From a virus: 64,000 bases of DNA. The stretch lies in the IMG/VR virus record IMGVR_UViG_3300045988_183612; one strand, 5' to 3'. The position numbers and the translations under genes are program-made. Positions 5,878-8,368 of this stretch are shown piece by piece; the stretch's first letter is position 1; each line of letters starts with the position of its first letter. The notes under the pieces are model-generated. The model did not search any database. It was not told where the DNA came from and saw only the letters and a list, made by a program, of their open reading frames with translations.

Positions 5878-7092
5878 ATGGATAGAGAACAAGAAAGATT
5901 AAATACATCACTTTTATGTGGTTGGTCAGTAATAACAATAACACTATTAGGCATTTATTTTGGTGAAATGTTAAAACATGCTATATCACCACCATATTTT
6001 GCAATATTTGCTATATTAATCAGTATCCCGAATTTAACAGGGTGGTTGGTTTTTATTTATAATAAAAACTGGCTATTTTTAAAATATTTTGTAACATTCT
6101 CGTTTTTAATAATGTATACATTTACCTTATTTACAGGAAATACTGTTTTATGTTTTACTTATATATTCCCAATTATCCTGCTTTTAATTTTATATTATGA
6201 TCCAACTTTAATTATAGTAACCGGTTTATTTTCGACAGTGTTGAATATTACAGCAATATTTATTAAGACATATAATAAAATTGATAAATCAGGTGGCAAA
6301 GACATGGAGATACAACTTGCAATAATTATTTTATGCTTTGCTGCAGCATATATTGTTTCAAAGTTTTATAAAAGAAATACAGACCTAAATTTACAAAATA
6401 CACAAACAATAATAAATCAAATAGAACAAATTAACAAAATGTCTCTCCAAACAATTACAACTATAGCAAATATTATTGATGCCAGAGATAATTACACCAA
6501 AGGCCACTCAACCAGAGTGGCGGATTATACAGCCTTATTAGCATATAAATTAGGAATGAATAAAAATGAAATTGAAGATATTCATTCAATAGCACTATTG
6601 CATGATATAGGGAAACTAGGAATCCCGGATAGCATATTAAATAAACCAGGAAAATTAACAAATGAAGAGTACCAAGTAATGAAGAACCACACAGTAATAG
6701 GTGGAAATATCTTAAAAGATATGTCAATGCTTAAGGACATTGATTTGGGAGCAAAATATCATCATGAAAGATATGATGGAAAAGGATATCCAGATGGCTT
6801 AAAGGGAGAACAAATACCTTATATTGCAAGGATTATTTCTGTGGCAGATGCCTTTGACGCAATGACAAGTGACAGAGTATATAGGAAACATTTAGATTCA
6901 ATAATTGTAATCAATGAGCTTGAAAAAGGTAAAAGTACTCAATTTGATCCGGTAATTGCAGATGCTATGTTAAGTTTAATTAAATCTGAGAAAATCAAAA
7001 TGAACTATAATGCTTTACTTGAAGAAATTGATTTAGCAGAAAATTTGAACGAATTGTATCCAGAGAAAGAATTTTATGATGCAACAGAGTAA
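5878..7092 (+). CDS. membrane-anchored HD-GYP domain c-di-GMP phosphodiesterase
   Basis: N-terminal multipass hydrophobic region. C-terminal HD-GYP motifs: HSTRVADY, LLHDIGKLGIP, HHERYDGKGYPDGL. AAGGAGG RBS, motif at 5828. Confidence 0.85.
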   Translation: MDREQERLNTSLLCGWSVITITLLGIYFGEMLKHAISPPYFAIFAILISIPNLTGWLVFIYNKNWLFLKYFVTFSFLIMYTFTLFTGNTVLCFTYIFPIILLLILYYDPTLIIVTGLFSTVLNITAIFIKTYNKIDKSGGKDMEIQLAIIILCFAAAYIVSKFYKRNTDLNLQNTQTIINQIEQINKMSLQTITTIANIIDARDNYTKGHSTRVADYTALLAYKLGMNKNEIEDIHSIALLHDIGKLGIPDSILNKPGKLTNEEYQVMKNHTVIGGNILKDMSMLKDIDLGAKYHHERYDGKGYPDGLKGEQIPYIARIISVADAFDAMTSDRVYRKHLDSIIVINELEKGKSTQFDPVIADAMLSLIKSEKIKMNYNALLEEIDLAENLNELYPEKEFYDATE

Positions 7093-7234
7093 TGTTAGAT
7101 TTTAATTAATAAAAATGATAATAACTTTGTAAAATACTCATATATTAGAAACAAAAAGATGCAATATGGCAGAAAGGAGAATTACTTCTTCCCTTATCTT
7201 CAGATAAGGAATTCAGTGATTAATAAATATTATT

Positions 7235-8368
7235 ATGAAAACAATAGAAAAAATTAAAATACAAGATAATACAATAAATCATACAGAAAAACAAACCAGT
7301 TTATACGCATATTTGTATAATAAATTTCAAAATAAAATAATGGCTATTAACCTTCTTATAATAATCACAATATTTGTTTTTGAATTATTATTTATACCAA
7401 TACACATAATAATAGAAAAACAAACAATAAATATATTATCTTATATTATATTGAATGTATTTATACCTACTACATCTAATTTAATAATATGGTTTACCGG
7501 TAGACAAATTATAAGAAAATATCAAGATAATATTATACCAGAAATATATGAGGCCATGCCTTTGTACATTTTAACTTTAATCATAGTGGTTTCAATTATC
7601 ATTCATTATAATTATCCGGTATTATATACATTAATAGCCTGCCCAATTTTTATGTGTATTGTATATGGTAGTAACAAGGTTAATTGGCAATTATTTTTGA
7701 TAAGTCAATTTGAAATAATTACAATCTCATTATCATCAATTTCTGAATTAAATAAGTTACCATCAAATTATTTAATATATATGTTTTTATCATGTATCAT
7801 AACAATATTTGCATATATTTATTCAAGACTTGTTATTAAATATGAGAAAGAAAAAGAACTTAAACTGGTTTTATCTGAAAATAGAAATGCACAATTACTA
7901 AAAGAAATTTCACAAGATGGATTAACTCGATTAGATAATTATATGTCTCTTTTTAATACAACAAAGAAATGGATATCATATAAGAAAAAACTTCATTTTT
8001 GTATAATAGATATAGATGATTTTAAATCAGTTAACGATACATATGGACATGAATTTGGAAATACTGTTTTAATTAATTTAGCTAAGGAACTTCAAAATAT
8101 TAACCAATCAAATATTTTTGTCGCCAGATATGGAGGCGAAGAATTCGGAATATTATTTGCAGATTATGAATATACTGAGGCGTATAATATAATTAACGAT
8201 ATCAGAATTAAATTCAACAATATTAAATATGAGAATATTCCGCAGCAATTTACTTTCTCTGGAGGAATAACAGAATATAAGAAAAATAATACCGTTCACG
8301 ATTTATTTGATGCAGCAGATAAAAATTTGTATAAAGCTAAAAGAACAGGCAAAAATAAAATTATGTAA
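7235..8368 (+). CDS. membrane-anchored GGDEF diguanylate cyclase
   Basis: N-terminal transmembrane helices. C-terminal GGDEF domain: DIDDFKSVNDTYGHEFGN, active site RYGGEEFGILF. No upstream motif of its own, so probably co-transcribed with the HD-GYP gene. Confidence 0.85.
   Translation: MKTIEKIKIQDNTINHTEKQTSLYAYLYNKFQNKIMAINLLIIITIFVFELLFIPIHIIIEKQTINILSYIILNVFIPTTSNLIIWFTGRQIIRKYQDNIIPEIYEAMPLYILTLIIVVSIIIHYNYPVLYTLIACPIFMCIVYGSNKVNWQLFLISQFEIITISLSSISELNKLPSNYLIYMFLSCIITIFAYIYSRLVIKYEKEKELKLVLSENRNAQLLKEISQDGLTRLDNYMSLFNTTKKWISYKKKLHFCIIDIDDFKSVNDTYGHEFGNTVLINLAKELQNINQSNIFVARYGGEEFGILFADYEYTEAYNIINDIRIKFNNIKYENIPQQFTFSGGITEYKKNNTVHDLFDAADKNLYKAKRTGKNKIM

What the first reader, a model, noticed from the sequence alone, without database searches (positions are those of the whole stretch)
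5878..8368. Mobile-element-encoded c-di-GMP module: membrane HD-GYP phosphodiesterase followed by membrane GGDEF cyclase
Two adjacent genes, apparently one transcription unit. Both have polytopic N-terminal sensor-like membrane domains. One has a complete HD-GYP active site, the other a GGEEF active site. A phage or plasmid carrying both synthesis and degradation of c-di-GMP could rewire host biofilm, motility or sporulation decisions, or interfere with cyclic-nucleotide-based defence. A 7+7-bp hairpin (CTTATCTTCAGATAAG, 7194..7209) lies in the short spacer between them.
Basis: partly seen in the sequence, partly recalled or inferred. Interest (0 to 1): 0.65.

Follow-up and report, generated by a model that had tools for sequence, protein, structure and literature searches.

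The report
Giant gut element's cyclic-dinucleotide enzyme pair
A giant plasmid-like DNA element that is common in human gut samples carries two adjacent membrane-bound enzyme genes, one that breaks down the bacterial signal c-di-GMP and one that makes this kind of signal; carrying such genes is not new, but the maker enzyme has unusual, untested residues where it reads its substrate.

Summary
ORF1 (5878-7092) is a six-helix membrane domain joined to a complete HD-GYP phosphodiesterase. ORF2 (7235-8368) is a different six-helix membrane domain joined to a GGDEF domain with an intact GGEEF motif. They look like one transcription unit. An element-specific promoter motif (CTGTCATAT; 31 copies against 0.8 expected) lies 48 nt upstream of ORF1. 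No + strand copy lies in the spacer, and terminator-like hairpins flank the pair. In a diverged relative the two genes overlap by 11 nt.

Three corrections:
- **Replicon.** It is not shown to be a phage. It is a giant element (contigs of 235-831 kb) with a coupling protein, a relaxase and its own sigma factor. Its relatives point to a gut Clostridia host.
- **GGDEF domain.** It is non-canonical at both known guanine-specificity positions: Asn276 replaces Asp and Tyr236 replaces Arg. This pattern is conserved in its clade, so c-di-GMP as the product is likely but not assured.
- **Conserved linkage.** Across three lineages the stable pairing is HD-GYP with a class A penicillin-binding protein. 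One lineage lacks the GGDEF gene.

The spacer hairpin is real but no more than chance would give. I found no support for interference with anti-phage defence. Verdict: a new variant of a known kind, of moderate interest.

The parts
5830..5838 (+). Element-specific promoter-like motif CTGTCATAT, 48 nt upstream of the ORF1 start codon
   Evidence: The window holds 31 exact copies against 0.82 expected. Of these, 28 are on the + strand, and 17 of 27 lie 34-52 nt upstream of a start codon that has an SD. The core also precedes the HD-GYP gene in L016 (exact) and in L009 (ATGTCATAT).
5867..5873 (+). Shine-Dalgarno sequence AAGGAGG, 4 nt before the ORF1 ATG
   Evidence: Read from the sequence.
5878..7092 (+). 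ORF1 (404 aa): six-helix membrane domain (aa 1 to about 165), then one long signalling helix (aa 139-203), then the HD-GYP phosphodiesterase domain (aa 196-359)
   Evidence: Pfam HD_5 at 1.2e-38. Best PDB matches are V-cGAP3 (5z7c, 1.6e-40) and PmGH (4mcw, 1.3e-39). Metal ligands, GYP and R333xxR336 are invariant across 30 homologs. AlphaFold2 model pLDDT 86.6.
7093..7234 (.). 142-nt spacer with no + strand promoter motif and no terminator-like site
   Evidence: Rfam finds nothing, even at E<=1. A minus-strand copy of the motif with one mismatch lies at 7164-7172.
7192..7209 (+).
   Evidence: expected by chance in about 20% of such spacers, and no T-run follows.
7235..8368 (+). ORF2 (377 aa): six-helix membrane domain (aa about 16-201), then a long helix (aa 179-226), then the GGDEF domain (aa 227-375). 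GGEEF is intact, there is no RxxD I-site, and the specificity residues are non-canonical (Tyr236, Asn276)
   Evidence: Pfam GGDEF at 4.7e-32. PDB alignments are, the family alignment and the residue statistics. AlphaFold2 model pLDDT 90.5.
5667..5699 (+). Terminator-like hairpin after the upstream small ORF; the left boundary of the unit
   Evidence: 14 pairs followed by a T-run.
5763..5822 (+). Conserved A-tract, nested hairpin and T-tract element between promoter motifs 5711 and 5830; a terminator or a small RNA
   Evidence: 19 pairs, with 4 compensatory double changes against L016 and none broken. Rfam gives no match.
8568..8592 (+). Terminator-like hairpin downstream of ORF2; the right boundary
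   Evidence: 10 pairs, 6 of them GC, followed by a T-run.
8647..10980 (+). Class A penicillin-binding protein (transglycosylase plus transpeptidase), with its own promoter motif at 8605. It is linked to the HD-GYP gene in three lineages
   Evidence: Pfam. NCBIfam PBP_1a_fam gives 477 bits against a cut-off of 508.75. Synteny is seen in L009 and L016.

Best explanation
The region is a two-gene operon of a giant plasmid-like extrachromosomal element. The element is most likely hosted by an uncultured gut Clostridia lineage.

The operon is transcribed from an element-specific promoter, possibly read by the element's own sigma-70 factor. It encodes two integral membrane enzymes with opposite effects on a cyclic dinucleotide. 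One is an HD-GYP phosphodiesterase whose base-reading motif is of the c-di-GMP type. The other is a GGDEF-family cyclase.

Each catalytic domain hangs on its own, unrelated six-helix membrane domain through one continuous signalling helix. Two different membrane or envelope cues would therefore set degradation and synthesis independently, as a push-pull controller. The cyclase lacks the I-site, so its product would not inhibit it.

The likely effect is that the element overrides the host's c-di-GMP level, and with it the surface programme that c-di-GMP controls in Clostridia (flagella against adhesion, and envelope functions). This would act together with the neighbouring element-encoded class A penicillin-binding protein.

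**Shown:** the domains, the catalytic residues, the topology models, the operon signals, the synteny and the prevalence.

**Inferred:** enzymatic activity, c-di-GMP as the product, the nature of the signals, and the effect on the host.
For: - **Domains and catalytic motifs:**
- **HD-GYP base reading:** the motif is RVYR, the canonical Rxx(K/R) form that reads guanine. RxxQ/N marks the cGAMP-specific enzymes (bioRxiv 10.1101/600031; alignment).
- **Structure:** both models show six TM helices and a continuous helix into the catalytic domain.
- **Operon:** a promoter motif lies at 5830, no + strand copy lies in the spacer, and terminator-like sites lie at 5667-5699 and 8568-8592. In L009 the GGDEF ATG overlaps the HD-GYP stop by 11 nt and has its own SD.
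- **Conservation:** both proteins are kept at 57-60% identity in L009 with all motifs intact.
- **Domain-level coupling:** many Clostridia homologs of ORF1 are fusions of the membrane domain, HD-GYP and GGDEF, about 700 aa long.
- **Element:** contigs of 235-831 kb from many human gut samples; a T4 coupling protein, a Mob_Pre relaxase, RecA, a primase, a split DnaE and a sigma-70 factor.
- **Host:** the named relatives of the GGDEF, the HD-GYP and an inserted IS are all Clostridia.
- **Link to surface behaviour:** a chromosomal relative of ORF2 lies next to a flagellin gene.
Against: - The GGDEF domain has Asn276 where strict c-di-GMP synthases have Asp, and Tyr236 where 94% of them have Arg (PMC6456294, PMC9140294). 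Its product is therefore uncertain.
- ORF2 has no Shine-Dalgarno sequence at normal spacing.
- A third lineage (L016) lacks the GGDEF gene altogether, so the pair is not an indivisible module.
- No c-di-GMP effector (a PilZ domain or a GEMM riboswitch) was found in the window. The rest of the element and the host could not be examined.
- No expression or activity data exist.
Confidence: 0.55

Rival explanations
1. The architecture and operon are the same, but the Asn/Tyr-type GGDEF is a purine-promiscuous or adenine-accepting cyclase. It would make 3',3'-cGAMP, c-di-AMP or a mixture, as Hypr GGDEFs do. The element would then bring a partly private cyclic-dinucleotide signal, and the HD-GYP enzyme would clear it, as V-cGAPs can clear cGAMP.
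For: - Both known guanine-specificity determinants are changed (Asn276, Tyr236). Tyr is the cross-dimer residue of GacA itself (PMC6456294).
- The change is conserved and co-varies. Among 109 homologs, none of the 32 Asn-type sequences has the cross-dimer Arg, against 41 of 77 Asp-type sequences (Fisher p = 9e-9, not corrected for phylogeny).
- An amide side chain can pair with adenine. The same reasoning, and experiments, hold for RxxQ/N in HD-GYPs.
- The best PDB match of ORF1 is V-cGAP3.
Against: - Asn can also accept hydrogen bonds from guanine N1/N2, so GTP may still be preferred.
- Natural Hypr enzymes have Ser/Thr and strictly GGDEF, not GGEEF, so this is not a Hypr enzyme.
- The partner HD-GYP keeps the canonical RxxR motif, not RxxQ/N.
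- No cGAMP riboswitch was found in the window.
- No Asn-type enzyme has been characterised in the papers I could reach.
Confidence: 0.22
2. The GGDEF protein is not a working cyclase. It is a membrane scaffold or regulator, as staphylococcal GdpS is, and it acts on envelope or lipid enzymes. The only cyclic-dinucleotide activity of the locus is then the HD-GYP phosphodiesterase, which lowers host c-di-GMP alongside the element's penicillin-binding protein.
For: - GdpS has the same build (polytopic membrane domain plus GGDEF with GGEEF intact), yet it works without its catalytic residues (PMC11962490).
- ORF2 aligns to the GdpS model across its last membrane helices and the GGDEF domain.
- The linkage conserved across three lineages is HD-GYP with PBP. 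In L016 the GGDEF gene is replaced by a 69-aa ORF and a phospholipase-C-like gene, which acts on lipids.
- ORF2 lacks a good SD.
Against: - The GdpS score is 64.8 bits against a cut-off of 400, so ORF2 is not an ortholog.
- The GdpS-DgkB interface is restricted to Staphylococcaceae.
- All catalytic residues (D259, N267, R298, GGEEF, K369) are invariant across a clade that has diverged to 25-57% identity. Catalysis explains this most simply.
- The long signalling helix is typical of regulated dimeric cyclases.
Confidence: 0.15
3. The pair is a counter-defence or defence device. The HD-GYP would destroy cyclic-oligonucleotide immune signals such as the CBASS signal 3',3'-cGAMP, and the GGDEF would make a decoy or an inhibitor.
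For: - HD-GYP enzymes of the V-cGAP type hydrolyse 3',3'-cGAMP, and the best PDB match of ORF1 is V-cGAP3.
- The GGDEF fold is related to the Cas10 palm domain (weak Pfam hit at 4.6e-5, below the cut-off).
- Anti-restriction genes lie nearby (Lar-like).
Against: - Neither protein nor its neighbours match any PADLOC model.
- Both proteins carry large, conserved six-helix membrane sensor domains. Known soluble signal-degrading anti-defence enzymes do not.
- The closest relatives are ordinary chromosomal signalling proteins of Clostridia.
- The HD-GYP has the canonical guanine-reading RxxR motif.
Confidence: 0.04

Closest known systems
HD-GYP c-di-GMP phosphodiesterases (PmGH of Persephonella marina, PDB 4mcw; PA4781, 4r8z; V-cGAP3 of Vibrio cholerae, 5z7c)
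   Same: ORF1 has the HD_5 fold, the full set of H/HD/H/HH/D metal ligands, the HHExxDGxGYP motif and the Rxx(K/R) guanine-reading motif (RVYR).
   Different: The input module is an uncharacterised six-helix membrane domain, not a REC or GAF domain. The Glu that binds the third metal in PmGH (E185) is Tyr here, as in V-cGAP3, so a binuclear site is likely. The gene sits on a giant mobile element.
Canonical diguanylate cyclases (PleD, WspR, Idiomarina PadC 5llx/6et7, DgcR of Leptospira 6zxb)
   Same: ORF2 has the GGDEF fold, GGEEF, the Mg ligands, the sugar-face Asn (N267) and the phosphate-binding Lys/Arg. A long helix links the input domain to the GGDEF domain.
   Different: The selectivity Asp is replaced by Asn276 and the cross-dimer Arg by Tyr236. 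There is no RxxD I-site.
Hypr GGDEF cGAMP synthases (GacA of Geobacter, 6d9m; Bd0367 of Bdellovibrio)
   Same: The base-selectivity position does not hold Asp. The cross-dimer residue is not Arg, and it is Tyr exactly as in GacA.
   Different: Hypr enzymes have Ser/Thr, not Asn, and always GGDEF, never GGEEF. They have REC or GAF inputs and an I-site. ORF2 fails the defining Ser/Thr test.
GdpS of Staphylococcus (5TMR_LYT membrane domain plus GGDEF; recruits DgkB independently of c-di-GMP)
   Same: Both are Firmicutes proteins of about 360-380 aa with a polytopic membrane domain and a GGDEF domain in which GGEEF is intact. Both have an envelope-related context. A partial model match covers aa 116-377.
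   Different: The score is far below the family cut-off (64.8 against 400 bits). Pfam detects no 5TMR_LYT domain. The DgkB interface is specific to Staphylococcaceae.
c-di-GMP enzymes already known on mobile elements: the diguanylate cyclases DgcK and DgcL of SXT/R391 ICEs (from my own knowledge: Bordeleau et al. 2010), and annotated GGDEF proteins of Bacillus phages G and SP-15, Bordetella phage CN1 and uncultured phages
   Same: A mobile element carries enzymes that can reset the host's second-messenger level.
   Different: Those cases are single cyclases or single HD proteins. Here a phosphodiesterase and a cyclase are co-transcribed, both are membrane sensors, the pair is linked to a penicillin-binding protein, and the replicon is a giant element of several hundred kb.
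Inocles (giant plasmid-like elements of oral Streptococcus; Kiguchi et al. 2025, PMC12340149)
   Same: Size of hundreds of kb, low GC, a human-associated habitat and IS polymorphism. The conserved gene set is similar: a bifunctional transglycosylase/transpeptidase, Pol III alpha, RecJ, RecD/UvrD-like helicases and an RpoS-like sigma factor.
   Different: The samples are from the gut. The relatives of its genes are Clostridia, not Streptococcus. The marker gene InoC was not seen in about 84 kb. Contigs reach 831 kb. The Inocle paper does not mention c-di-GMP genes.

Membership tests
HD-GYP phosphodiesterase (Pfam HD_5 / class II c-di-GMP PDE) | HD_5 profile match above the curated cut-off | tested here: met
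   133 bits against 27.2.
HD-GYP phosphodiesterase (Pfam HD_5 / class II c-di-GMP PDE) | Metal ligands H...HD...H...HH...D and the GYP motif | tested here: met
   H210, H242-D243, H271, H295-H296, D324 and G303-Y304-P305 are present, and all are invariant in 30 homologs.
HD-GYP phosphodiesterase (Pfam HD_5 / class II c-di-GMP PDE) | Rxx(K/R) motif that reads guanine of c-di-GMP (PmGH R314/K317) | tested here: met
   SDR333VYR336K aligns to PmGH SDRPYKK. The meaning of the motif is taken from 10.1101/600031.
HD-GYP phosphodiesterase (Pfam HD_5 / class II c-di-GMP PDE) | Hydrolysis of c-di-GMP | not testable with these tools
   Needs an enzyme assay.
cGAMP-specific HD-GYP (GAP; PmxA, Bd2325) | RxxQ or RxxN signature | tested here: not met
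   The motif is RVYR.
Canonical diguanylate cyclase (GGDEF) | GGDEF profile match, GG[DE]EF motif, Mg-binding Asp and sugar-face Asn | tested here: met
   111 bits against 23.8. GGEEF at 300-304, D259 and N267 are present.
Canonical diguanylate cyclase (GGDEF) | Asp at the base-selectivity position (PleD D344 / Idiomarina D581) | tested here: not met
   The residue is Asn276 (alignments). The change is conserved in the clade.
Canonical diguanylate cyclase (GGDEF) | Cross-dimer Arg (Idiomarina R537; present in 94% of predicted cyclases) | tested here: not met
   The residue is Tyr236 (alignment to 6et7; PMC6456294).
Canonical diguanylate cyclase (GGDEF) | RxxD allosteric I-site (typical of the family, not obligatory) | tested here: not met
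   There is no R..D anywhere in ORF2. The aligned residues are QSNI.
Hypr GGDEF (cGAMP synthase) | Ser/Thr at the selectivity position, together with GGDEF (never GGEEF) | tested here: not met
   ORF2 has Asn276 and GGEEF.
Hypr GGDEF (cGAMP synthase) | A cross-dimer residue other than Arg | tested here: met
   Tyr236, the same residue as GacA Y304.
GdpS (NCBIfam NF047872) | Score above the equivalog cut-off | tested here: not met
   64.8 bits against 400.
Inocle giant extrachromosomal elements | InoC marker gene (about 454 aa, Replic_Relax PF13814) | tested here: inconclusive
   Not seen in about 84 kb covered by Pfam lists. The rest of the element was not examined.
Inocle giant extrachromosomal elements | Streptococcus host and oral habitat | tested here: not met
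   The contigs come from gut metagenomes. The named relatives are Clostridia.
Inocle giant extrachromosomal elements | Conserved set: bifunctional PBP, Pol III alpha, RecJ/exonuclease, RecD-like helicase, sigma factor, ISs | tested here: met
   The set is described in PMC12340149.
Bacteriophage | Capsid, portal, terminase or tail genes | tested here: inconclusive
   None in the window or its flanks. ORF1 has no relative in IMG/VR and megablast finds nothing among phage records. Only about 84 kb of at least 235 kb was seen.
Known anti-phage defence systems (PADLOC) | Match to any component model | tested here: not met
   No hits for ORF1, ORF2 or four neighbouring proteins.

The most novel reading that the evidence does not exclude
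The Asn/aromatic-type membrane GGDEFs would be an unrecognised specificity class of GGDEF cyclases. They have Asn at the base-selectivity position, Tyr, Phe, Gln, His, Met or Ile at the cross-dimer position, GGEEF intact and no I-site. They would make a product other than c-di-GMP, or a mixed product such as 3',3'-cGAMP or c-di-AMP. Giant mobile elements of gut Clostridia would have captured them repeatedly (this element, plus L014 and L015). Here the cyclase is paired with its own HD-GYP eraser and a penicillin-binding protein. The result would be a private, element-controlled signalling circuit acting on the host envelope.
Probability: 0.2. Interest if true: 0.8.

Novelty: new variant of a known kind. 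Interest (0 to 1): 0.5.

Why it matters
c-di-GMP decides between motility, adhesion and biofilm formation in Clostridia. The element holding this pair appears in over a thousand sample blocks of human gut data. It could therefore be a widespread outside controller of how a gut Firmicute behaves at surfaces and how it builds its wall.

The co-varying Asn/aromatic signature in the GGDEF domain gives a cheap, sharp biochemical test. It asks whether a second natural route exists, besides the Ser/Thr 'Hypr' route, by which GGDEF enzymes change product.

The recurring HD-GYP and PBP linkage points to a connection between cyclic-dinucleotide turnover and peptidoglycan synthesis. In Firmicutes that link is established for c-di-AMP, not for c-di-GMP.

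Tried and rejected
1. **Riboswitch or known RNA in the spacer or leader.** Rfam found nothing in the window at the gathering threshold, and nothing in 5500-8700 at E<=1.
2. **A shared sensor domain.** The two membrane domains are unrelated (BLASTP E=1), and Pfam has no model for either. PF24898, seen in some homologs, is only a GGDEF variant model.
3. **A Rosetta-stone fusion of ORF1 and ORF2.** The roughly 700-aa relatives are the membrane domain, HD-GYP, a canonical soluble GGDEF and an extra C-terminal domain. They are not ORF2 orthologs. This supports coupling at the domain level only.
4. **Identifying the replicon by DNA similarity.** Megablast found nothing among 50,697 phage records or 72,556 plasmid records. 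ORF1 has no close relative in GTDB representative genomes or in IMG/VR.
5. **'It is an Inocle'.** The gene content is similar, but the habitat and the relatives point to gut Clostridia, and InoC was not seen.
6. **Host through an IS.** The best named relative is only 76% identical (Hungatella), so this gives the class of host, not the species.
7. **The hairpin as a regulator.** It is at chance level and there is no variation to test it.
8. **Literature on an Asn variant.** I found none. Hallberg 2016 and Bordeleau 2011 are not held.
9. **AlphaFold-database fold search.** It was meant to classify the membrane domains, but the library was unavailable.
10. **tRNAs.** None in the window.
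Full report
**1. The observation**

Pfam assigns ORF1 to HD_5, the HD-GYP family (1.2e-38; 133 bits against a cut-off of 27.2). It assigns ORF2 to GGDEF (4.7e-32; 111 bits against 23.8).

ORF1 carries every HD-GYP catalytic element. These are H210, H242-D243, H271, H295-H296 and D324, with G303-Y304-P305 lying inside HHERYDGKGYP. All of them are invariant in an alignment of 30 homologs. ORF2 carries D259, N267, R298 and GGEEF at 300-304.

Hydropathy gives about six hydrophobic helices with short loops in each N-terminus. 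AlphaFold2 models built on the family alignments are confident (pLDDT 90.5 for ORF2 and 86.6 for ORF1). Both show the same design: six membrane helices, with the last one running on as a single long helix into the catalytic domain (ORF2 aa 179-226, ORF1 aa 139-203). That is the usual build of signal-regulated, dimeric enzymes of these families. The two membrane domains are unrelated to each other and match no Pfam model. The ORF1 domain holds invariant polar and aromatic residues (N9, W16, Y27, E30, Y40, P51, Y80, T86, Y95, Y106, E144). That speaks for a real sensing module rather than a plain anchor.

**2. The hairpin**

The best form is CCTTATC-TTCA-GATAAGG at 7192..7209. No T-run follows it, and the scan finds no terminator-like site in the spacer. 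The spacer as a whole folds no better than shuffled versions (z = -1.07). The window holds 162 perfect hairpins of this size, and about 20% of simulated spacers of this composition hold one. The sampled copies of the element are identical here, and the diverged relative has no spacer. Nothing therefore supports a function for the hairpin.

**3. One transcription unit**

The 9-mer CTGTCATAT occurs 31 times in the window against 0.82 expected. Of these, 28 are on the + strand, which carries almost all the genes. They typically follow a T-run and lie 34-52 nt upstream of a start codon that has a Shine-Dalgarno sequence (17 of 27 cases). A minus-strand copy sits upstream of the minus-strand relaxase gene. 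I read the motif as the element's own promoter signal. The element encodes a sigma-70 family protein (54760..55788) that could recognise it, but this link is an inference.

One copy lies 48 nt upstream of ORF1 (5830), and AAGGAGG follows it 4 nt before the ATG. The spacer between ORF1 and ORF2 has no + strand copy, even when two mismatches are allowed. The next copies are at 8387 and 8605, after ORF2. Terminator-like hairpins lie at 5667-5699 and at 8568-8592. The core of the motif also precedes the HD-GYP gene in two diverged lineages (L016 exact, L009 ATGTCATAT). In L009 the GGDEF ATG overlaps the HD-GYP stop codon by 11 nt and has its own AAGAGG, which is a translationally coupled operon. 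Co-transcription in the window is therefore well supported, though not proven.

Two caveats apply. ORF2 has no SD at normal spacing. A one-mismatch copy of the motif lies on the minus strand at 7164-7172.

**4. The replicon**

The window has 23-34% GC and nearly all its genes are on one strand. It holds replication and recombination genes:
- two UvrD-type helicases, RecJ, RecA, a DnaG-type zinc ribbon and a 5'-3' exonuclease;
- a DnaE-type polymerase split into three ORFs;
- a DNA methylase, guanylate kinase, flotillin and two Rce1-like proteases.

Many ORFs have no family match. There are no tRNAs.

Just upstream are a Mob_Pre relaxase (1..1206, minus strand), a NERD protein and a 982-aa VirD4/TraG-type coupling protein. 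The exact ORF1 protein is indexed in 1125 blocks of the assembly collection. The same proteins occur on human gut contigs of 235-555 kb, and up to 831 kb. In about 84 kb inspected I saw no capsid, terminase or tail gene. Megablast finds nothing among phage or plasmid records. ORF1 has no close relative in IMG/VR or in GTDB representative genomes.

The gene content resembles that of the 'Inocles', the giant plasmid-like elements of oral Streptococcus. Both have a conserved bifunctional PBP, Pol III alpha, RecJ, RecD-like helicases, an RpoS-like sigma factor and IS polymorphism (PMC12340149). Here, though, the samples are from the gut. The named relatives of the GGDEF, the HD-GYP and an IS inserted in one copy are all Clostridia: Lachnospiraceae, Eubacterium, Oscillospiraceae and Hungatella. 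The Inocle marker InoC was not seen. I therefore call it a giant plasmid-like element of a gut Clostridia host, of unresolved class. 'Phage' remains possible but has no support.

**5. Relatives and synteny**

A lineage with about 60% (HD-GYP) and 57% (GGDEF) identity (L009-L011) keeps the order HD-GYP, GGDEF, class A PBP. The PARP-like gene has moved to the other side. A lineage whose HD-GYP is 68% identical (L016) has HD-GYP, a 69-aa ORF, a zinc phospholipase-C-like gene and then the PBP, with no GGDEF. The linkage conserved across all three lineages is thus HD-GYP with PBP. The cyclase is present in two of the three.

ORF1 belongs to a very large Clostridia family of proteins with this membrane domain and an HD-GYP domain, 45-51% identical over more than 90% of their length. 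Many members are fusions of about 700 aa that add a canonical GGDEF domain. That is domain-level evidence that this phosphodiesterase type works together with a cyclase.

The full-length relatives of ORF2 (35-37% identity) include a chromosomal copy next to a flagellin gene, in a context typical of Clostridia (SCIFF and radical SAM genes, trigger factor). They also include copies on two other large, single-strand, mostly hypothetical contigs of 168 and 235 kb with phage-family hits.

**6. Specificity residues: the main correction**

For HD-GYP enzymes, the Rxx(K/R) motif (PmGH R314/K317) reads a guanine of c-di-GMP. RxxQ and RxxN variants are cGAMP-specific (bioRxiv 10.1101/600031). ORF1 has R333-V-Y-R336 at the aligned position, and it is invariant in the family. 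ORF1 is therefore of the c-di-GMP type.

For GGDEF enzymes, the Asp equivalent to PleD D344 (Idiomarina D581) pairs with the Watson-Crick face of guanine and is 'conserved in strict c-di-GMP producers'. Ser or Thr at that position gives the promiscuous Hypr cGAMP synthases (PMC9140294, PMC6456294). A second determinant is a cross-dimer Arg (Idiomarina R537). It is present in 94% of predicted cyclases, and Tyr replaces it in GacA.

In the HMMER alignments of ORF2 to solved structures, Asn276 sits at the Asp position (NDTYGHEFGN against NDTYGHNIGD). Tyr236 sits at the Arg position (LDNY against FNRR). This is not a private mutation. Among the 109 homologs whose motifs could be read:
- 32 have Asn at the selectivity position, and none of these has the cross-dimer Arg (Gln 10, Tyr 8, Phe 8, His 3, Met 2, Ile 1);
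- 41 of the 77 Asp-type sequences have the Arg (Fisher p = 9e-9).

That p-value is not corrected for shared ancestry. All of these sequences keep RYGGEEF. ORF2 also lacks the RxxD I-site.

ORF2 thus fails two tests for a canonical cyclase. It also fails the defining test for a Hypr enzyme, which needs Ser/Thr with GGDEF. It belongs to a conserved clade for which I found no characterisation. Asn is as long as Asp, so the 'Goldilocks' distance argument made against Ser with GGEEF does not apply. Its amide can bond with either guanine or adenine. This last step is chemical inference, not a result.

**7. Mechanism**

The best-supported reading (confidence 0.55) is an element-encoded push-pull controller of a cyclic dinucleotide, most likely c-di-GMP. 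It would be built from two membrane-sensing enzymes in one operon, acting on the host's surface and envelope programme next to an element-encoded PBP. Three rival readings remain:
- The cyclase makes another product or a mixed one (0.22).
- The GGDEF protein is a GdpS-like scaffold and only the phosphodiesterase matters (0.15). The GdpS precedent (PMC11962490), the lineage without a GGDEF gene and the weak SD favour this. Against it stand the invariance of the catalytic residues across a deeply diverged clade and the far sub-threshold GdpS score.
- The pair is a counter-defence device (0.04). PADLOC gives no match, both proteins have membrane sensor domains, and their closest relatives are ordinary chromosomal signalling proteins.

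**8. Comparison and novelty**

GGDEF proteins and HD-GYP or HD proteins are already present in phage records. Examples are Bacillus phages G and SP-15, Bordetella phage CN1, an uncultured phage protein named 'AdrA' with a membrane domain and GGDEF, and Microcystis phage MaAM05. Diguanylate cyclases on SXT/R391 ICEs have been studied experimentally; this last point rests on my own knowledge. Carriage by a mobile element is therefore not new.

What is new here is the combination:
- a co-transcribed eraser and writer;
- an independent membrane sensor on each;
- a recurring link to a class A PBP;
- a very prevalent giant gut element as the carrier;
- a writer from an uncharacterised Asn/aromatic specificity clade.

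I rate it a new variant of a known kind, with interest 0.5.

Noticed in passing
window, 31 sites (e.g. 2556, 5711, 5830, 8387, 8605, 12173, 16245, 21346, 32983, 41685, 57024, 63286): The motif CTGTCATAT occurs 31 times against 0.8 expected. It usually follows a T-run and lies 34-52 nt upstream of an SD and a start codon. I read it as the element's own promoter signal. Seven copies also carry TTATGTAA exactly 24 nt upstream of the motif, which suggests a bipartite promoter class. The element encodes a sigma-70 family protein at 54760..55788 that might read the motif.
   Followed up: partly
window 5763-5822 (homolog in L016 at 6-70): An A-tract, nested hairpin and T-tract element lies between two promoter motifs, just upstream of the ORF1 promoter. 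It is conserved in a diverged lineage with 4 compensatory base-pair changes and no broken pairs. It may be a short promoter-to-terminator unit (a small RNA) or a bidirectional terminator. Rfam gives no match.
   Followed up: partly
window 8387-8592: A second short unit lies between ORF2 and the PBP gene: promoter motif at 8387, about 180 nt, then a strong terminator-like hairpin at 8568-8592. Its -35-like element overlaps the ORF2 stop codon. It may encode a small RNA or a small protein.
   Followed up: no
whole window and loci L001-L008, L018, L019: The replicon is a giant element. Contigs run from 235 to 831 kb, and the exact ORF1 protein is indexed in 1125 blocks of human gut data. It is absent from GTDB representative genomes, IMG/VR, and the phage and plasmid collections. 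It has a T4 coupling protein and a Mob_Pre relaxase, but no phage structural genes were seen. Its gene content resembles Inocles, while its relatives are Clostridia.
   Followed up: partly
window 8647-10980; L009 3939-6461; L016 2470-5148: An element-encoded class A penicillin-binding protein stays linked to the HD-GYP gene in three diverged lineages. One sampled copy (L003) has a shorter form of 717 aa.
   Followed up: partly
window 4217-5503; L009 8192-9481: A 428-aa protein has a PARP-type ADP-ribosyltransferase catalytic domain (Pfam 1e-18). It lies next to the pair here and on the other side of the PBP gene in the diverged lineage.
   Followed up: no
L016 1435-2269: In the lineage whose HD-GYP is 68% identical, the GGDEF position is occupied by a 69-aa ORF and a zinc-dependent phospholipase-C-like protein (Pfam 1.4e-14).
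   Followed up: partly
window 42993-44834, 45209-45967, 51639-53324: The DnaE-type Pol III alpha is split into three ORFs (PHP plus core; core plus finger; finger plus HHH plus OB). Unrelated genes lie between the second and the third, including an RlaP nucleotidyltransferase and a 5'-3' exonuclease.
   Followed up: no
window 7164-7172 (minus strand): A copy of the promoter motif with one mismatch (CTGCCATAT) lies on the minus strand inside the ORF1-ORF2 spacer. If it is active, it would drive an antisense transcript into the 3' end of ORF1.
   Followed up: no
L013 5553-8427; L014 8001-9104; L015 8001-9080: Other Asn-type membrane GGDEF genes were found. One is chromosomal and lies directly upstream of a flagellin gene. 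Two lie on other large, single-strand, mostly hypothetical contigs (235 and 168 kb) that have phage-family hits (Thg1, an anti-restriction protein) and, in one case, their own sigma factor. Neither of those two has an HD-GYP partner.
   Followed up: partly
window 11360-12109; 38457-39020; 31224-32798; 36108-36992 and 53437-54348: Other cargo on the element: a weak match to the CdiA-CT RNase-A-like toxin domain (3.9e-5, below the cut-off), a guanylate kinase, a flotillin/Band 7 protein and two Rce1-like intramembrane proteases.
   Followed up: no
window about 56000-58000, compared with L008 19500-20990: GC skew turns negative locally at 56-58 kb. One sampled copy of the element carries an IS3-type insertion (HTH_Tnp_1 plus rve) that the window lacks. 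The closest named relatives of this IS are from Hungatella, Clostridium and Lachnospiraceae.
   Followed up: partly
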